A stretch of 64,000 bases of DNA, from assembly GCF_965641715.1 (NCBI RefSeq), contig NZ_OZ282453.1. One strand, 5' to 3'. Shown here one piece after another: positions 1 to 45,807 of the stretch. A model generated the notes under the pieces. The model did not search any database and was not told where the DNA came from. It was given only the letters and a program-made list of their open reading frames with translations. The position numbers and the translations under genes were made by a program. The DNA comes from Escherichia coli (GTDB lineage: Bacteria; Pseudomonadota; Gammaproteobacteria; Enterobacterales; Enterobacteriaceae). Each line of letters opens with the position of its first letter. The stretch's first letter is position 1.

Positions 1-596
1 TAGGGGTAACCTGTAGGGATGTACCACCCACCTTAAAATAAAGGGGTAAAATCGCTTAGAATGCGTTACAGAGCGTCTGAGAAGCCATATTCACAGATTT
101 TACTAAAACCTCAGACTTCTAAGTGGTCTTTTTAACAGGAGGGTTCTTTCTCATGTATCACCCTCTCTTCCCGCCAAGTAAGCTACACAGACCTAGAGAA
201 TATGCCTTCACAGCATCTATATCAGGTCAGATTTAGAGGTCTTGATAGAATCTTCAAAGGTACTTGACAGATAACTATGAAGTTGTTAGGAAGGGGTGTT
301 TAACGGGGGAAGAGATACGATATAACCCGAAGGGGAGAGTATCATCTTAACAGTGATTGTAAGAGTAAAACTGAAAAGATACTTAACAGAACTACCAAGA
401 GGGAGCGATAAGACCAGAGGTAGTGACCTGTTAAACAGTTCGTTTCAAAGCTCTTAAGAGTCTGTTAAGTAAGGTCATGTGAACAATCATATCATTTTGT
501 CAATGCTTTTGTCTTTGACCTAAATCAATAAAATGTATCGTTTGATGTGCTTTTAAACAAAATAGTTAAAAATCTTTTTAGAGGGGCGCTTCGCTT

Positions 597-1265
597 GTGT
601 CACATCCAATAATCCATATCGGTCGTTATCATGGTGGTTCTGATGACTGGCGTACACCGTATCGTCTATTTCATAACCTGCATCGTGAGTATAGCTTCAG
701 TCTAGATGGCGCTGCAACTGAGCATGACGCATTGTTGCCACGGTTCACCGATGATATAAACCGTCAATCATGGGTTGGTGAACGGGTCTTCGTTAACCCG
801 CCGTTTAGCATGGCTGAACAGTTCCTCGCAAAAGCCCCTGAAGCTGATGTGTGTGTATGTCTGGTTCCGCACAGGTCAAAGACAACTTACTGGCTTCGGT
901 GTGTATATACAAACCCCTTCCTGCATGAGATTCGAACATTACACCGAGCGGTTAAATACCTTCCACCAGCAGGAAAGAGAGGTGTTGTAGCGCGTTCACC
1001 ATTTGCAAGCTGTGTTTTGATATACAGGAACACACCCCGTAAACCGAAGGTTGAAATTACCCAGACAATCTATTGTGGCGACACAATGCTTTTACTTGCC
1101 GTGGTTAATAGGGGTGGTTTACGTGGAAGACCTCATATACACGATGCACAGACGCTTGACAGGTTGATTAAAATGCATGACCAAGGGCAATCCGTCAAGA
1201 GTATCGCAGAATCGCTAAGAATGCCTCTAAGCACCACTTACAGGATTGTTCAAAGGTTGAGCTAA
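597..1265 (+). CDS. Phage Dam-family DNA N6-adenine methyltransferase with C-terminal HTH-like segment
   Basis: GTG start with GAGGGG RBS about 11 nt upstream; WRTP...GERVFVNPPFS motif typical of phage Dam-type MTases; C-terminal QSVKSIAESLRMPLSTTYRIVQRL resembles an HTH. Confidence 0.6.
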   Translation: MSHPIIHIGRYHGGSDDWRTPYRLFHNLHREYSFSLDGAATEHDALLPRFTDDINRQSWVGERVFVNPPFSMAEQFLAKAPEADVCVCLVPHRSKTTYWLRCVYTNPFLHEIRTLHRAVKYLPPAGKRGVVARSPFASCVLIYRNTPRKPKVEITQTIYCGDTMLLLAVVNRGGLRGRPHIHDAQTLDRLIKMHDQGQSVKSIAESLRMPLSTTYRIVQRLS

Positions 1266-1300
1266 AATTCTCATATAGAGCACTGATTATGAGAATGTTA

Positions 1301-1333
1301 AAGAGGCGATTTCCCCTTTCTGGGGTTATTCGC
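1301..1333 (+). repeat. About 30-nt element containing CCCCTTTCTGGGG hairpin followed by T-run (copy 1); possible MTase terminator
   Basis: aagaggcgatttcccctttctggggttattcgcttttt; a near copy occurs at 1521..1552. Confidence 0.4.
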
Positions 1334-1520
1334 TTTTTACTGGAAGGGTTATTTTACAGAGGTTTTTCAAACCCCCTCAATAATAAAAAACGAGCAACAA
1401 ACGAAGAGCGAGAAATAAAATATTGAGACTGGTGAACGGGGTCTGTAAAGATTGTTTAAGAAGTCGGTTTAGGGATTGGTAGATGATTCGGATGAAGCAT
1501 CCTCATAACAATACCAATTA

Positions 1521-1552
1521 GAAGGTGGCTCTCCCTTTCTGGGGATATCGCC
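1521..1552 (+). repeat. About 30-nt element containing CCCTTTCTGGGG hairpin (copy 2)
   Basis: gaaggtggctctccctttctggggatatcgcc, similar to 1301..1333. Confidence 0.4.
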
Positions 1553-1575
1553 TTGTATCTTAGTGAGTCCAGGAA

Positions 1576-1760
1576 GTTCTCTGTGAAGGGACTTGTCAGT
1601 CCTTTATATTGGCTAATTACAACTTATTGAAAAATAAGCATTTTTAGAAATCACTGTTAAGGTTACAGAGTTCTCTGTGAAGAGACTCGTCAGCTCTCTA
1701 TATTGGCTAATTACAACTCATTGAAAAATAAGCATTTTTAGAAATTGCTGTCAGAGAGGT
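1576..1760. repeat. Tandem direct repeat, 2 copies of about 94 bp (about 90 percent identical)
   Basis: gttctctgtgaag(g/a)gact(t/c)gtcag...tattggctaattacaac...ttgaaaaataagcatttttagaaat occurs at 1576 and again at 1670. Confidence 0.8.
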
Positions 1761-1833
1761 GAGTACTTGATAGATACAGCTTTCCGGTTCTGTCAAGATA
1801 TTTTTTAATAGATAGCACAAAATGCTAAAGATA

Positions 1834-1863
1834 CCCCTATACCATCACGTACAGGGGGTTTTG
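1834..1863 (+). terminator. Hairpin plus T-run (intrinsic terminator-like), between repeat region and minus-strand small genes
   Basis: cccctataccatcacgtacaggggg followed by ttttg. Confidence 0.35.
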
Positions 1864-1871
1864 AAGGGAGT

Positions 1872-2060
1872 TTAACGGGGTTCTGTGTGGTTATCTGTTC
1901 TGGTCCTGTCCTTGAGGTCAAATGACCATTCACGACCAAACAATCTGAACACGATAAACACCCGAACGATGAAATAGCGGAGCAGAAGACCTGCAATCAG
2001 CCCAACACCTCCACCAGCCCATACATCAGGTGACCCCAGCTCAGGAGGGAGATTTACCAT
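1872..2060 (-). CDS. Small predicted membrane protein (62 aa), unknown function
   Basis: Internal ATG with AGGAA RBS; single hydrophobic helix WAGGGVGLIAGLLLRYFIVRVFIVF; start overlaps the stop of the upstream 34-aa ORF (TAATG). Confidence 0.35.
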   Translation of the reverse strand: MVNLPPELGSPDVWAGGGVGLIAGLLLRYFIVRVFIVFRLFGREWSFDLKDRTRTDNHTEPR

Positions 2061-2164
2061 TAAATTTCCTGTGTGCAATGCAATACCATGTGACATACAT
2101 AGTTGATTCGGTTAGTTGGGCTTGTACCAACCCCTATCGAATAAACCTCATAGCCACGCTTCAT
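2060..2164 (-). CDS. Small ORF (34 aa) translationally coupled to the 62-aa membrane protein
   Basis: ATG preceded by GAGGGGGAA RBS immediately downstream of a minus-strand promoter; MKRGYEVYSIGVGTSPTNRINYVCHMVLHCTQEI. Confidence 0.25.
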   Translation of the reverse strand: MKRGYEVYSIGVGTSPTNRINYVCHMVLHCTQEI

Positions 2165-2186
2165 ATTTCCCCCTCTCTCATAAACC

Positions 2187-2216
2187 ATTATACCACAAAT
2201 GTTACGAAATTGTTAA
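2187..2216 (-). promoter_or_regulatory. Sigma70-like promoter (TTAACA, 18 nt spacer, TATAAT) on minus strand
   Basis: Reverse complement reads ttaacaatttcgtaacatttgtggtataat; drives the 34-aa and 62-aa ORFs. Confidence 0.45.
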
Positions 2217-2222
2217 AAATAC

Positions 2223-2251
2223 TTGACATTAGTCTTTGAAAATGCTAGTAT
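2223..2251 (+). promoter_or_regulatory. Sigma70-like promoter (TTGACA, 17 nt spacer, TAGTAT) on plus strand
   Basis: ttgacattagtctttgaaaatgctagtat, about 50 nt upstream of the 2300 operon; back to back with the minus-strand promoter. Confidence 0.45.
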
Positions 2252-2299
2252 TGTATATAAGTTAACAGAGAATTAACAATTATAAGGACTAGCTTATGA

Positions 2300-2857
2300 A
2301 TGAACGACAGAGAATTTAGAGCGATGCTTCAGGCATCGAGACAACGTAACAGATACAACTCCTACAGCTACACAGACACCCCCACCAGCTACGAACTACC
2401 CAAGCTCACCAGAGCAGAACGCAAAGGCCTTGATGAATTAATTCGTAGCATTACGCCACGAGATAGATTTATGCCAACCAGAAAGAGCACGAAGAACACT
2501 ATTAAAAATTATCTGGCTAACTTTGACAGCTACGAACAATTACCAAGTAAGCTTGATGATGTAATTATCGGATTCTGTAGAAGTGAAGGTCACCCGAAAT
2601 ACAACAAAAAACTATTTTATCTTCTAAAGAATCTTGACGAAATTAACTCAGCCACCGTGACAAATCATCTTCAGCGTCAAGCAACCAGACTTAGCCATGA
2701 ATTACCAAGCGATAAATATTGCGCTTTGCTTGCTGTAATGTGCGCAAAGTTAATTGGTGTTGTTGAGCATCATATTGCCGTTGGAAATATTGAGCCAATG
2801 GAAAACGAGCAACCAGATTTCGAGTTTGACCCGTATTTAGTTACAGAGGAATTTTAA
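2300..2857 (+). CDS. Hypothetical phage protein (185 aa)
   Basis: ORF with AAGGA RBS; first gene of a coupled operon; no recognisable motif. Confidence 0.5.
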   Translation: MNDREFRAMLQASRQRNRYNSYSYTDTPTSYELPKLTRAERKGLDELIRSITPRDRFMPTRKSTKNTIKNYLANFDSYEQLPSKLDDVIIGFCRSEGHPKYNKKLFYLLKNLDEINSATVTNHLQRQATRLSHELPSDKYCALLAVMCAKLIGVVEHHIAVGNIEPMENEQPDFEFDPYLVTEEF

Positions 2858-3136
2858 ATGAAGAAACACACTTTGACCCGTATTTCAGAAGAAGCCTTTC
2901 ACGAGCTTACCCGAATTAAACAGACAACTAACCTCCCTCATCAAACTGTTATGCAGCTTGCAATTGCTAAAGAGGTTACTGAGTCGGATTTACTGAAATA
3001 TCCAGTCTCTAAAGGTCGTAAGCACATCCGAATTACTCAGGACGCTTTAGATACTTTGAAGGCACTTAACAACTTTAAAATTGATATCGCCCGACTATTG
3101 AGTATTAAGATTCACAAGTTAGCAATGGGGGTTTAA
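2858..3136 (+). CDS. Hypothetical protein (92 aa), possible ribbon-helix-helix DNA-binding fold
   Basis: ATG directly after upstream stop; N-terminal HTLTRISEEAFHELTRIKQ...QTVMQLAIAKEV fits a strand-helix-helix pattern (inference). Confidence 0.4.
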   Translation: MKKHTLTRISEEAFHELTRIKQTTNLPHQTVMQLAIAKEVTESDLLKYPVSKGRKHIRITQDALDTLKALNNFKIDIARLLSIKIHKLAMGV

Positions 3137-3351
3137 TGCTATGCGTTACCTTTGAATACCACACGGATAAAATGATTCGCTACATCTCCGACCTCCTGAT
3201 TGAAGGAAACGGATTCGGTGACATCCATAACTCAAAAGATATTTTCATTAAAGCCATTGGCCCAAATGAAGTACTGAAAACAGCAGTTAAACCGGAATGG
3301 TTTGAGCGTCACAAGATTGAATTAGGTTATTGGGGTGAGGAGGTTTTATGA
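3136..3351 (+). CDS. Hypothetical protein (71 aa)
   Basis: TAATG overlap with upstream gene; no recognisable motif. Confidence 0.4.
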   Translation: MLCVTFEYHTDKMIRYISDLLIEGNGFGDIHNSKDIFIKAIGPNEVLKTAVKPEWFERHKIELGYWGEEVL

Positions 3352-3635
3352 AACCTTGGCATGAAGATGTTAGACGATATTTTACAGAACACCTTATCTA
3401 TGATGAATCCAGTGATTCCCTGTGCTGGTCTGATGGAGAGTCAGTCACGATAAACACCGACGACTACGGCAACAAAACATTTAATATAGGCCGATATACT
3501 TTCTACGTGAAATATGTTGTCTGGTTCCTTTATCATGGCTATCAATCCAACAAGCAAATTATCCATCGAAATGGTAACAGAGCCGATACCAGACCAAAAA
3601 ATCTTATGCAAGTCCGAGACTTTAAGAGAAATTAG
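3348..3635 (+). CDS. Small HNH-family endonuclease (95 aa)
   Basis: ATGA overlap with upstream gene, GAGGAGG RBS; motif IHRNGNRADTRPKNL resembles the HNH_3-type H-x-NGN-x-D-x-R-x-x-NL signature. Confidence 0.55.
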   Translation: MKPWHEDVRRYFTEHLIYDESSDSLCWSDGESVTINTDDYGNKTFNIGRYTFYVKYVVWFLYHGYQSNKQIIHRNGNRADTRPKNLMQVRDFKRN

Positions 3636-3642
3636 AAAAACA

Positions 3643-3766
3643 GCTTCTCAGACGCTCTCAATCGCATTCTAACGCAAAAAACTATCTTATTTTAGGGTGG
3701 GTAATACCACTGTACAGGCTACCCCTGAAAAAGACTGTTTAGCTCGTTACAGAGCGATTGAGGAGG
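3643..3766. promoter_or_regulatory. Inverted pair of operator-like 10-bp-periodic motifs flanking about 75 bp upstream of the 3792 gene
   Basis: 3643..3672 (minus orientation) reads ttagaatgcgattgagagcgtctgagaagc; 3745..3766 reads cgttacagagcgattgaggagg; both are related to 56..85. Confidence 0.4.
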
Positions 3767-3791
3767 TCTGGTAAAAAGGAGATTTTAAGAA

Positions 3792-4121
3792 ATGAGAGAA
3801 TTAAACTTCCCACTACAGATTTTTATTGATACCGACACCGCCATGATGATTCAGGCTTTCACTGATGTAGGTGTTAGCATTGACTTTGATAAGTTGTTAG
3901 AGTTAATGACTGATAATGCGGAAAGCATCTCTGACTTTATTCAGTCGGTGGAGTTTAACGAGCCTCGAATGATGCTACCAATTAAAGACAGCAACATGAA
4001 AAGATTGGTTATCGAGCAAACGAACAAATTCAGCGTTAGCCCTGAAAAATATCTCAAGGCGGCTATAGCAATTTTGTACGCTGACAATATTTTGGTGACG
4101 GATTCGAAGGTGGTGCATTAA
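3792..4121 (+). CDS. Hypothetical acidic protein (109 aa)
   Basis: AAGGAG RBS; no recognisable motif. Confidence 0.5.
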   Translation: MRELNFPLQIFIDTDTAMMIQAFTDVGVSIDFDKLLELMTDNAESISDFIQSVEFNEPRMMLPIKDSNMKRLVIEQTNKFSVSPEKYLKAAIAILYADNILVTDSKVVH

Positions 4122-4186
4122 TGGAATTGGTGATTATCTGTTTTGTATTGATTGGTATGATTGCAGGTGCATCTATTAAAGTATAA
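4121..4186 (+). CDS. Tiny hydrophobic peptide (21 aa, MELVIICFVLIGMIAGASIKV), translationally coupled
   Basis: ATG overlaps TAA of upstream gene (TAATG); entirely hydrophobic single-helix peptide. Confidence 0.25.
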   Translation: MELVIICFVLIGMIAGASIKV

Positions 4187-4211
4187 ATGTTACCAATCTG
4201 TTAAAAATCTG

Positions 4212-4240
4212 TTGACAAATAACCTTGAGCATGACATAAT
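4212..4240 (+). promoter_or_regulatory. Near-consensus sigma70 promoter (TTGACA, 17 nt spacer, CATAAT)
   Basis: ttgacaaataaccttgagcatgacataat. Confidence 0.55.
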
Positions 4241-4246
4241 TGTATA

Positions 4247-4503
4247 TATATGAGGATAGTCTTCTATCCGAAGTCTATAGGGAGAGCAATTCTCCTTGAA
4301 TTAAAATATTAATCATCTCTACATCAATGATAACTATATTCTGAGTTGGTGAGGTATGTTCTATACCGAACATTCTGAAAGGTGCAATGCTTTTCGTCAT
4401 GGCCTTTCAGTTTAGTCTGAGAGGCTATCTCAAAAAGTGCTTAATCATTCATTCATTGAATCCTTTACAGCTTTGCCCTAATCATGAGTTAGGGCGTTTC
4501 TTT
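4247..4503 (+). ncRNA. Candidate small RNA or structured leader (about 255 nt) from promoter to first intrinsic terminator
   Basis: No ORF of 60 aa or more in about 460 nt; several stable hairpins (4254..4269, 4356..4373); ends at terminator 4475..4503. Confidence 0.3.
4475..4503 (+). terminator. Intrinsic terminator (7-bp GC-containing stem plus T-run)
   Basis: gccctaatcatgagttagggc then gtttcttt. Confidence 0.5.
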
Positions 4504-4574
4504 AAGAGTTTTAAGCAGAGCTTTTAAAGAAAGTTTTTCCTGAAACTTCGTTAACGTTATAAAGCAAACCTTCA

Positions 4575-4610
4575 AAGCCCTTCACAGATTCAATGTTTAG
4601 GGCTTTTCTT
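4575..4610 (+). terminator. Second hairpin plus T-run (terminator-like)
   Basis: aagcccttcacagattcaatgtttagggctt then ttctt. Confidence 0.4.
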
Positions 4611-4707
4611 AATAGAGCATCTTTAATAAATCGTTAAGTCATCTTCTAAGTGTATTGGCGTTGAAGGTGCTCTGTTAAGAAATAAACCACACTTAGAGGA
4701 AGTTATA

Positions 4708-5418
4708 ATGACAAACGATTTATATATTAACGGTAAAAAGGTTGATAGCTTCGGTGACTGGTCGCCACAGACTGAACATCCAGCTATCACTATTCAGCGC
4801 AAAGAACACGATGAAAGAATTGCACTTGAGCAAGAAATCCGAATGTCACCAAAGGTAATTTCCTTTGTGGCTCCTGAGCCTCAAGATATGCCGGATATTT
4901 GCAAAACTGAAGCATTGCTTGAGCTTGAAAAGAAATTTTACCCAGCTTTAAAAGCACAGCGTCTTAAACTAGATGACGCTTACAGTAAAGTTACCCTGAT
5001 GCAATCAGCTATTGAGCCATCAGAATTTGAGATTCAGGATGAATTGTCACAGAAACCATTTGTCTATTACCAATATGAAGACAATGATGGTTTTGGTACT
5101 TTTCCTGAGAATATCCCAGACGTGATTAATAATCCGATGGATGGATATCGAATTGTGAAGATGGTTAAGGCATCAAGAGGTGCTGGTCAGTTTATTTACA
5201 TGACTAATAAGAGCGATGAAGAACTCGCTGAACTTGCTAGACAGAACATCTTGGCATCACGTAACAAGCAGCTTGATAATGTTAAGTTGTATCTCTCAAG
5301 AGAGCTTCAGGCTATGAAAGACCTTGTGAAAGAATATGAAGATGCTAAGAAGATTGCTATGCAAGCCGATATTGAGCAGTTAGTGAAGATTTCTAGCAAA
5401 TATGCAAAGGCTATTTAA
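4708..5418 (+). CDS. Hypothetical phage protein (236 aa), charged with coiled-coil-like C-terminus
   Basis: GAGGAAG RBS; first gene of a co-directional module ending at 8794. Confidence 0.5.
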   Translation: MTNDLYINGKKVDSFGDWSPQTEHPAITIQRKEHDERIALEQEIRMSPKVISFVAPEPQDMPDICKTEALLELEKKFYPALKAQRLKLDDAYSKVTLMQSAIEPSEFEIQDELSQKPFVYYQYEDNDGFGTFPENIPDVINNPMDGYRIVKMVKASRGAGQFIYMTNKSDEELAELARQNILASRNKQLDNVKLYLSRELQAMKDLVKEYEDAKKIAMQADIEQLVKISSKYAKAI

Positions 5419-5437
5419 TTATGATGTGAGGTGAAGA

Positions 5438-5653
5438 ATGATTGATTTAACTGAACGCTATGAAGTTATTAAGTCTGTTTGTGAGAACTTAAAGCTTCAG
5501 ACTAAACCAAAGCTACGAATTAAAAATCAGCATCAAGTTATCACCTCACACAAACCAAAGGTTAGAAGGATTCCTTCATGGTGTATTGACCGTGTTCCTG
5601 CTGATGCTCAATTAATTGGTGAGTCTGGTTCTTACACTTATATCCTTCATTAA
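5438..5653 (+). CDS. Hypothetical phage protein (71 aa)
   Basis: GAGGTGAAG RBS; immediately upstream of the tape-measure-like gene. Confidence 0.45.
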   Translation: MIDLTERYEVIKSVCENLKLQTKPKLRIKNQHQVITSHKPKVRRIPSWCIDRVPADAQLIGESGSYTYILH

Positions 5654-5734
5654 AAATTACAAAGGGGAGAGATTAGCCTTAATTGGTTAGTCTTTCCCTT
5701 TTTCGTATATGAACACTTAAGAGGTGAAACATGA

Positions 5735-45719: not shown

Positions 45720-45807
45720 GGAAGTGTGGCCGAGCGGTTGAAGGCACCGGTCTTGAAAACCGGCGACCCGAAAGGGTTCCAGAGTTCGAATCTCTGCGCT
45801 TCCGCCA
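45720..45807 (+). tRNA. serT: tRNA-Ser (anticodon UGA)
   Basis: ggaagtgtggccgagcggttgaaggcaccggtcttgaaaaccggcgacccgaaagggttccagagttcgaatctctgcgcttccgcca; long variable arm, CCA end. Confidence 0.9.

What the first reader, a model, noticed from the sequence alone, without database searches (positions are those of the whole stretch)
597..1265. Phage Dam-family adenine methyltransferase with a C-terminal HTH-like extension
The N-terminal about 150 aa carry the phage Dam-type NPPF motif; the last about 50 aa look like a helix-turn-helix. An orphan methyltransferase fused to a DNA-binding domain could act as anti-restriction cargo and as a methylation-dependent regulator.
Basis: partly seen in the sequence, partly recalled or inferred. 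Interest (0 to 1): 0.4.

Follow-up and report, generated by a model that had tools for sequence, protein, structure and literature searches.

The report
Methyltransferase-HTH cassette in a phage-satellite-like island
The gene is real: a small adenine DNA methyltransferase fused to a resolvase-type DNA-binding domain. It is not in a prophage but is an optional cassette in an 11-12 kb E. coli island that looks like a parasite of Felix O1-type phages.

Summary

The gene is an orphan methyltransferase, but it is not prophage cargo. It is a discrete ORF-plus-terminator cassette (597-1353) in the conserved non-coding left arm of an island of about 11-12 kb with a serine recombinase, here next to wrbA. 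The island backbone matches in 493 of 5426 complete E. coli genomes (about 9%). The cassette is full-length in 210 genomes, roughly 40% of island copies.

The island encodes relatives of the Felixounavirus tape-measure and tube-initiator proteins. It shares a 50-bp non-coding element with those phages. Like them, it has no GATC (0 observed, about 38-41 expected). GATC therefore cannot be a target on the island or on the sampled helper DNA, so the "Dam" name probably misleads.

Most likely it is an active DNA methyltransferase that the HTH targets or tethers, giving protective methylation. Its specificity and any regulatory role are untested.

The parts
597..1265 (+). Methyltransferase-HTH gene (222 aa, GTG start, stop at 1263-1265)
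   Evidence: ORF list; Pfam Dam plus HTH_7; exact match to WP_332246132.1; dN/dS about 0.2
639..1028 (+). Catalytic core, aa 15-144: gamma-class-like N6-adenine methyltransferase Rossmann domain
705..716 (+). D37-G-A-A, the motif I-like AdoMet-binding segment
   Evidence: D37 invariant, A39 and A40 at least 90% conserved in alignment A1
795..806 (+). N67-P68-P69-F70, catalytic motif IV
   Evidence: Sequence aacccgccgttt; N67, P68 and P69 invariant
1059..1112 (+). Beta-hairpin extension, aa 155-172, between the core and the HTH
   Evidence: AF2 strands 155-160 and 166-172; the 'aDT.L.L' segment is conserved in all fused homologues and in P0135
1125..1262 (+). Resolvase-type DNA-binding domain, aa 177-222: GRP arm plus a three-helix HTH
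1301..1343 (+). Terminator-like hairpin followed by a U5 run, the 3' end of the cassette
   Evidence: RNA fold -18.3 kcal/mol, z -3.8
597..1353 (+). The optional cassette (ORF plus terminator), absent from many islands of the same family
   Evidence: Islands L001, L010, L011 and L012 keep window 1-597/603 and resume at about 1354 or 1453
1..596 (.). Conserved non-coding scaffold upstream of the gene, with short matches to Felixounavirus non-coding DNA at 371-434
   Evidence: 83-93% identical in islands with or without the gene; matches to EC106
1354..2299 (.). Conserved non-coding scaffold downstream, including two 83-nt tandem copies at 1575-1657 and 1669-1751
1472..1521 (+). 50-bp element 96-100% identical to non-coding DNA of Felixounaviruses NBEco005 and EC106
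2300..5418 (+). Island genes of unknown function (185, 92, 71, 109 and 236 aa) and an HNH_3 endonuclease (3348-3635)
5735..7864 (+). Island tape-measure protein (709 aa)
   Evidence: PF20155, phrog_4036; about 32% identity to Felixounavirus tape-measure proteins
8000..8794 (+). Homologue of the Felixounavirus tube-initiator / Dit-like baseplate-hub protein (264 aa)
   Evidence: phrog_3721 at 2e-133, PF21821; 75% identity to the Bas63 gp18 locus; gp18 is the tube initiator (PMC12609058)
8814..10457 (-). Large serine recombinase (547 aa) at the right end of the island, next to wrbA (10509-11114)
   Evidence: Resolvase, Recombinase and Zn_ribbon_recom domains; synteny in E. coli 26561 and T2

Best explanation
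The gene encodes an active, orphan N6-adenine DNA methyltransferase. It has a minimal gamma-class-like core (AdoMet motif D-G-A-A, then the catalytic NPPF). Its C-terminus, where gamma-class enzymes such as M.TaqI carry their target-recognition domain, is a resolvase/invertase-type DNA-binding module: a G-R-P arm followed by a three-helix HTH. I infer that this module binds DNA sequence-specifically and so sets or narrows where the core methylates. The gene with its own terminator is an optional, moron-like cassette. It sits in the variable, largely non-coding left arm of a serine-recombinase island of about 11-12 kb that bears the marks of a satellite of virulent Felix O1-type phages. The most likely role is protective (anti-restriction) methylation of the island's DNA before it moves to a new host. 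The target is not GATC. Shown here: domain identities, intact motifs, purifying selection, cassette structure, island context and GATC absence. Inferred: enzymatic activity, DNA as the substrate, the HTH as a targeting module, and protection as the benefit.
For: Both domains are identified by sequence and by fold. Catalytic residues are invariant across 52 homologues. dN/dS is 0.17-0.24 in the core and 0.21-0.27 in the HTH between alleles with saturated dS. In a 40-row spread sample of the matching genomes, 37 copies are annotated as a single intact CDS. The closest relatives that have only the methyltransferase domain (40-46% identity) end right after the core, so the hairpin and HTH are an added module. 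The cassette has sharp boundaries and its own terminator, and islands exist with and without it. Other cargo occupies the same arm in other islands. No restriction enzyme is linked to it, and the island's HNH gene does not co-occur with it. The element is visibly shaped by restriction pressure. It has 0 GATC against about 38-41 expected, and many 6-bp palindromes are missing, the same pattern as in Felixounavirus Bas63. Bas63 is reported as remarkably sensitive to several restriction-modification systems (PMC8594841). The same methyltransferase-HTH sits at the same position in an island with the same gene order in a Pluralibacter-like contig.
Against: No methylation data exist, so activity and specificity are unproven. 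The HTH recognition helix is the most conserved part of the C-domain across E. coli alleles. Resolvase-type HTHs usually read long sites. That would give few methylated positions and fits site-specific regulation better than broad protection. One specificity protects against few restriction systems. Roughly 60% of island copies do without the gene. The HTH_7 score is only just above threshold. I could not inspect the model coordinates to see whether the HTH faces the catalytic pocket.
Confidence: 0.5

Rival explanations
1. It is a site-specific epigenetic or transcriptional regulator of the island. The HTH tethers the protein to one or a few operator-like sites in the island's long non-coding scaffold, or on helper DNA. 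Occupancy, local methylation or both then control island transcription, replication or packaging. The precedent is the HTH-bearing autoregulatory C5 methyltransferases such as M.SsoII.
For: The gene always lies inside about 3 kb of conserved non-coding DNA that carries repeats and helper-like sequence. The recognition helix and the GRP arm are the most conserved parts of the C-domain. In the Erwinia typographi homologue, five tandem 24-bp repeats begin 75 bp after the stop codon. Distant homologues in another island type also sit between non-coding stretches of about 0.8-1 kb. M.SsoII is a documented precedent (PMC3978073, listed).
Against: Islands lacking the gene keep the same scaffold, so the function is dispensable. 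The only candidate motif, GGGGTGTTTAACGGGG, is present in islands without the gene and absent from islands L008, L009 and L019 that have it. The upstream promoter region belongs to the scaffold, not to the cassette. Catalytic residues are strictly conserved, which a pure repressor would not need.
Confidence: 0.25
2. It is an arms-race module directed at the helper phage. It would methylate island DNA to shield it from helper-encoded nucleases, or methylate helper DNA to disturb the helper's replication or packaging, in the way PLE-ICP1 conflicts use nucleases and counter-measures.
For: The cassette occupies a variable arm where other islands carry an HNH_3+AP2 endonuclease-like gene or an unknown 221-aa gene. 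Short stretches upstream of the gene match Felixounavirus non-coding DNA, which would allow helper-dependent expression. Felixounaviruses carry homing-endonuclease genes (annotation).
Against: There is no direct evidence. No helper nuclease or target is identified. The helper relationship of the island is itself inferred.
Confidence: 0.15
3. It is a catalytically silent DNA-binding protein, or an RNA methyltransferase, that merely keeps a methyltransferase fold.
Against: D37 and N67-P68-P69 are invariant and under purifying selection. The fused domain is a DNA-binding HTH. The closest sequence relatives are phage proteins annotated as DNA N6-adenine methyltransferases.
Confidence: 0.07

Closest known systems
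Small phage 'Dam' orphan methyltransferases (Pfam PF05869 / TIGR01712), about 130-190 aa in the phage records matched here; I recall the phage T1, HP1 and VT2-Sa Dam enzymes as members, which I did not check
   Same: Same catalytic domain, with the D-x-A-A then NPPY/F order and no linked restriction enzyme. The sequence match is above the Pfam cut-off. The structural match covers the core only (TMq up to 0.56).
   Different: None of the 147 matching phage records covers 80% of the query, and no BFVD model matches full length. The query is far below the TIGR01712 equivalog cut-off (37.8 against 97 bits). It has an added beta-hairpin and HTH. It lies in a GATC-free element, so the GATC specificity I recall for T1 Dam would have no target there.
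Gamma-class N6-adenine DNA methyltransferases with a C-terminal target-recognition domain (M.TaqI, M.BseCI, CamA)
   Different: Their recognition domains are large (about 150-300 aa) and dedicated folds. Here it is a 46-aa resolvase-type HTH with a GRP arm. Sequence identity is only 13-15%.
M.SsoII / M.EcoRII-type methyltransferases with an autoregulatory HTH
   Same: One polypeptide combines a DNA methyltransferase with an HTH that binds a site other than the methylation site (PMC3978073, listed).
   Different: Those are C5-cytosine enzymes with an N-terminal HTH, and they are part of restriction-modification operons whose promoter they repress. Here the enzyme is an N6-adenine type with a C-terminal HTH, there is no restriction enzyme, and no operator was identified.
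C-terminal DNA-binding domain of small serine recombinases (Hin, gamma-delta resolvase, Tn552 Bin3)
   Different: It is attached to a methyltransferase, not to a recombinase catalytic domain. Pairwise similarity to the neighbouring resolvase is not significant (26% identity, E 0.14).
Phage satellites of virulent phages (PLE of Vibrio cholerae, PICMI), as the context of the gene
   Same: A small island of about 11-12 kb with a large serine recombinase, sequence and genes shared with a virulent phage family, and a variable cargo arm.
   Different: No excision, replication or packaging has been shown. No capsid-remodelling or replication genes are recognisable. It encodes its own tape-measure and tube-initiator proteins, which I did not find described for any satellite.

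Membership tests
Pfam PF05869 'DNA N-6-adenine-methyltransferase (Dam)' | HMM score above the gathering cut-off | tested here: met
   49.3 bits against 28.1, aa 15-144
Pfam PF05869 'DNA N-6-adenine-methyltransferase (Dam)' | Catalytic (D/N)PP(Y/F) motif, with an upstream D-x-A-A AdoMet motif | tested here: met
   N67-P68-P69-F70 and D37-G-A-A; invariant or nearly invariant in A1
Pfam PF05869 'DNA N-6-adenine-methyltransferase (Dam)' | Class I Rossmann methyltransferase fold of the gamma / M.TaqI-EcoKI group | tested here: met
Pfam PF05869 'DNA N-6-adenine-methyltransferase (Dam)' | m6A formation in DNA | not testable with these tools
   Needs a methylome or an enzyme assay
TIGR01712 phage_N6A_met (equivalog of phage Dam) | Score above the curated equivalog cut-off | tested here: not met
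   37.8 bits against 97.05; only aa 15-82 align
GATC-specific 'Dam' enzymes (function implied by the name) | GATC is the biologically relevant target | tested here: inconclusive
   Specificity cannot be computed. However, the island has 0 GATC (about 38-41 expected) and so do 50 kb of Bas63, and the host already has Dam. GATC methylation would therefore have no target on the element.
Pfam PF02796 HTH_7 (resolvase DNA-binding domain) | HMM score above the gathering cut-off | tested here: met
   23.9 against 23.8 in the full protein (marginal); 27.4 for the isolated C-terminus. Precomputed PF02796 hits are present on only part of the homologues.
Pfam PF02796 HTH_7 (resolvase DNA-binding domain) | Three-helix HTH preceded by a G-R-P type arm | tested here: met
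Pfam PF02796 HTH_7 (resolvase DNA-binding domain) | Sequence-specific DNA binding | not testable with these tools
   Needs EMSA, DAP-seq or ChIP
Orphan (solitary) methyltransferase | No cognate restriction endonuclease in the same unit | tested here: met
   No restriction enzyme in the island. The HNH_3 gene does not co-occur: L008 and L009 have the methyltransferase without HNH; L001 and L011 have HNH without it. PADLOC oMTase match.
M.SsoII-type autoregulatory methyltransferase | HTH represses the promoter of its own restriction-modification operon through an operator | tested here: not met
   No operon with a restriction enzyme. The upstream region belongs to the scaffold and is kept in islands without the gene. 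The candidate motif does not co-vary with the gene.
   The island is about 11-12 kb. Its recognisable phage-like genes are a tape-measure protein, a tube initiator, an HNH endonuclease and a recombinase.
Phage satellite (context) | Integrase, small size, and genes or cis-elements shared with a specific helper | tested here: met
   Large serine recombinase; about 32% and 75% identity to Felixounavirus proteins; shared 50-bp element; shared GATC and palindrome avoidance
Phage satellite (context) | Helper-induced excision, replication and packaging | not testable with these tools
   Needs infection experiments

The most novel reading that the evidence does not exclude
The methyltransferase-HTH is a site-directed epigenetic writer belonging to a previously undescribed family of satellites of virulent Felix O1-type phages. 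The resolvase-type HTH would dock it at defined sites on satellite or helper DNA, and the local m6A mark would serve as a self/non-self or timing signal for packaging, replication or escape from helper nucleases, rather than as generic anti-restriction. In an element that has purged every GATC, this would be a second adenine-methylation code independent of Dam.
Probability: 0.12. Interest if true: 0.75.

Novelty: new variant of a known kind. Interest (0 to 1): 0.5.

Why it matters
The protein itself is a compact, natural example of a minimal adenine methyltransferase core fused to a modular HTH. Only about seven clusters at 50% identity, out of 1.84 billion representatives, show this architecture. 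If the HTH sets the target, it would be a simple scaffold for studying how specificity is added to a minimal methyltransferase. It could also be a scaffold for engineering directed m6A writers.

The context matters more. The cassette marks an island family whose backbone matches in about 9% of complete E. coli genomes and that appears to parasitise Felix O1-type virulent phages. The island has its own tape-measure and tube-initiator genes, and it avoids GATC and palindromes as its putative helper does. I found no description of such a satellite in the searchable literature. Felixounaviruses are used in diagnostics and therapy, so a resident element that exploits them or interferes with them would have practical relevance.

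Tried and rejected
- **Restriction-modification pairing with the island's HNH endonuclease:** rejected. The two genes occur independently in different islands.
- **Binding site for the HTH:** the 16-mer GGGGTGTTTAACGGGG flanks the gene at 293 and 1865 and resembles the tandem repeats in the Erwinia locus. It is present in islands without the gene and absent from L008, L009 and L019, which have it. It is therefore not specific to this protein.
- **Small-terminase-like role:** the only support is a weak, generic HTH match to phrog_1482 (E 0.006). The gene is dispensable for the island, so I rejected this.
- **The 221-aa ORF that replaces the cassette region in L010 and L012:** it is unrelated, not a divergent allele, and has no Pfam or PADLOC match.
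- **Non-specific adenine methyltransferases (Hia5 and relatives):** they have DPPY and FxGxG motifs and a Hia5 segment at about residues 80-170 that corresponds to a target-recognition domain (PMC3299994). I did not pursue them as relatives.
- **PDB searches by sequence:** nothing usable for the full protein or for the family profile.
- **Rfam scan of window 1-11000:** no hit.
- **Literature searches** for a Felixounavirus satellite, for PF05869 specificity and for GATC avoidance in Felixounavirus: nothing relevant.
- **The afdb50 fold library** was unavailable.

Full report
**1. The observation**

- Pfam Dam (PF05869) matches residues 15-144 at E 5.7e-13 (49.3 bits against a gathering cut-off of 28.1).
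- The resolvase HTH_7 domain matches residues 177-217. The score is just above its cut-off in the full protein (23.9 against 23.8) and 27.4 bits when the C-terminus is scanned alone.
- PHROG 111 (DNA methyltransferase, 2e-24) and the PADLOC 'orphan methyltransferase' model agree.
- The NCBIfam phage Dam equivalog TIGR01712 scores only 37.8 bits against a 97-bit cut-off.
- NPPF is at residues 67-70 (window 795-806).
- In a 52-sequence alignment reaching about 30% identity, F34, D37, N67, P68 and P69 are invariant. W18, T20, P21, A39, A40 and W59 are nearly so.

**2. Structure**

AlphaFold2 with that alignment gives mean pLDDT 89 and pTM 0.86. The model has a Rossmann core, a beta-hairpin (155-172) and three helices (184-195, 200-207, 211-221).

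- By sequence, nothing in the PDB is related.
- This agrees with the published placement of the PCIF1/DIRS1 clade in the M.EcoKI/M.TaqI group (PMC4738411).
- The C-terminus matches small DNA-binding three-helix domains: GcrA DBD 7.4, Tn552 Bin3 7.0, IstA 6.8, Tc3 6.7, Cbp1 6.0. By sequence it matches Cbp1, Sleeping Beauty and Bin3 HTHs.
- The segment 'NRGGLRGRP' before helix 1 is invariant in E. coli alleles, and helix 3 is the best conserved helix. The layout 'G-x-x-G-R-P, then HTH' is that of small serine recombinases. The resolvase encoded beside the homologue in L019 aligns in register, although not significantly.
- The HTH stands where gamma-class enzymes carry their target-recognition domain.

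**3. Is it a functional gene?**

- The identical protein is WP_332246132.1 (E. coli), in a 90%-identity cluster of 2298 sequences.
- Homologues at 67-91% identity are almost all 220-222 aa.
- Between alleles whose synonymous sites are saturated, dN/dS is 0.17-0.24 for the core and 0.21-0.27 for the HTH.
- In a 40-row spread sample of E. coli hits, 37 copies are annotated as single intact genes, two are split and one is truncated. The copy in strain T2 is frameshifted.

**4. How common is the architecture?**

- A search of 1.84 billion representatives found 2346 relatives. Only about seven clusters match over both domains; the rest match residues about 15-150 only.
- The closest methyltransferase-only relatives end right after the core.
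- No phage record covers 80% of the protein. No BFVD model matches beyond the core (TMq up to 0.56).
- Named members come from Escherichia, Shigella, Pluralibacter, Erwinia typographi, Franconibacter and Raoultella.

**5. Context**

The window is an E. coli chromosome. Positions 1-10457 are a low-GC (0.40) island ending at a large serine recombinase next to wrbA. About 1.4 kb of the island lies left of the window, judged from L003.

- The same gene order recurs between yciI and tonB, inside yecE, and in a Pluralibacter-like contig.
- The order is: methyltransferase-HTH, small unknown genes with or without an HNH endonuclease, a 236-aa protein, a tape-measure protein, a Dit-like protein, and the recombinase.
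- The tape-measure protein is about 32% identical to Felixounavirus tape-measure proteins.
- The Dit-like protein is 75% identical to the product of the gene downstream of theirs. In Bas63 that product is gp18, the tube initiator of the baseplate hub (PMC12609058).
- A 50-bp non-coding element (1472-1521) is 96-100% identical to non-coding DNA of Felixounaviruses NBEco005 and EC106.
- The island backbone matches in 493 of 5426 complete E. coli genomes (563 places). The gene is full-length in 210 genomes (229 places). That is roughly 40% of island copies, within the limits of BLAST sensitivity.

**6. A cassette**

- Islands without the gene (L001, L010, L011, L012) keep the flanking non-coding DNA up to window 597-603, which is the start codon. 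L001, L010 and L012 resume at about 1354; L011 resumes only at about 1453.
- The missing piece is the ORF plus a terminator-like hairpin (1301-1338, -18.3 kcal/mol, z -3.8, followed by U5).
- Other cargo sits in the same arm elsewhere: an unrelated 221-aa ORF, or an HNH_3+AP2 protein.

**7. GATC**

- The island has no GATC at all (about 38-41 expected).
- Five other E. coli islands have 0-3 (39-51 expected). The Pluralibacter-like island has 0 (about 42 expected).
- The first 50 kb of Felixounavirus Bas63 have 0 (about 171-177 expected).
- The rest of the window has 226.
- Many 6-bp palindromes are also missing from both the islands and the phage.
- The islands differ from one another by 10-30%, so this absence must be actively maintained.
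- It ties the islands to the phage's way of life. It also means that a 'Dam' methyltransferase in this element has no GATC to act on there.
- Bas63 is reported as remarkably sensitive to several restriction systems (PMC8594841).

**8. Mechanism**

I judge an active orphan DNA adenine methyltransferase, with the HTH as a targeting or tethering module and protection of the mobile DNA as the benefit, to be the most likely reading (confidence about 0.5).

- A site-specific regulatory role is the main rival. It fits the conserved recognition helix and the setting in non-coding DNA. However, the gene is dispensable and the one candidate motif does not co-vary with it.
- Pairing with the HNH gene is rejected, because the two do not co-occur.
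- Activity, specificity, DNA binding and the satellite behaviour of the island are all untested.

**9. Verdict**

The protein is a new variant of a known kind: a PF05869 core with a resolvase-type HTH, annotated in databases but not characterised in any paper I found. The island context is the more interesting result and deserves its own follow-up.

Noticed in passing
window 1-10457 (plus about 1.4 kb left of the window); L001, L002, L003, L008-L012, L019: A family of low-GC islands of about 11-12 kb with a large serine recombinase. It sits at three or more E. coli sites (ymdF/wrbA, yciI/tonB, inside yecE), and its backbone matches in 493 of 5426 complete genomes. It encodes its own tape-measure protein and a 75%-identical copy of the Felixounavirus tube-initiator (Bas63 gp18). 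It looks like an undescribed satellite of Felix O1-type virulent phages.
   Followed up: partly
window 1-10457; L016 (Bas63 1-50000); L019 8047-19308: GATC is completely absent: 0 observed against about 38-41, 171-177 and 42 expected. Many 6-bp palindromes (PstI, PvuII, EcoRI, KpnI, NcoI, SacI sites) are also missing, in both the islands and the Felixounavirus. The flanking chromosome has normal counts.
   Followed up: yes
window 1472-1521; L011 1632-1667 and 3899-3948; L009 10902-10943; L004 259-307; L005 2506-2555: A 50-bp element with nested inverted repeats is 96-100% identical between the islands and the long non-coding region of Felixounaviruses NBEco005 and EC106. Some islands carry a second copy beside attL. 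It could be a packaging, replication or promoter signal borrowed from the helper.
   Followed up: partly
window 1-596 and 1266-2299: About 3 kb of the island (counting the part left of the window) is conserved DNA with no convincing ORF. It includes two 83-nt tandem copies (1575-1657, 1669-1751) and enrichment of CTGTTAA/TTAACAG (7 copies). There is no Rfam match. Its function is unknown.
   Followed up: partly
L010 1931-2596; L012 1943-2608; L011 2632-3156: Islands lacking the methyltransferase carry other cargo in the same left arm: an unknown 221-aa protein with no Pfam or PADLOC match, or an HNH_3+AP2 endonuclease-like protein. The arm behaves like a cargo hotspot.
   Followed up: partly
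L007 10779-10897; L015 9296; L010 4683; L011 4305; L012 4670: Five tandem 24-bp repeats (AGGGGGTGTATTAACGGTGATAC) lie 75 bp after the Erwinia typographi homologue. A related GGGG-TTTAAC-GGGG motif recurs in the non-coding DNA of two different island types. It looks iteron-like, but it does not correlate with the methyltransferase.
   Followed up: partly
L015 5465-19200; L007 5099-10957: Distant methyltransferase-HTH homologues (43-46% identity; Raoultella and Erwinia) lie in a different island type. That type has tyrosine integrases, a DEAD-like helicase and a Phage_cap_E capsid gene, and it is not GATC-free. It is possibly another satellite family that uses the same cassette.
   Followed up: no
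window 597-1265 compared with L008 12001-12663: Alleles are mosaic. The L008 protein matches the window's at 74 of the first 75 residues and then switches to the divergent allele class, which points to recombination within the gene.
   Followed up: no
L017 7777-13718 (Franconibacter helveticus): Here the homologue starts 29 bp after a flagellin plus FljA-like repressor pair, and is followed by IS1 and a large serine recombinase. It may be a decayed island beside a phase-variation-like flagellin locus.
   Followed up: no
window 45720-45807: The only tRNA gene in the window, tRNA-Ser (TGA). I did not examine it further.
   Followed up: no
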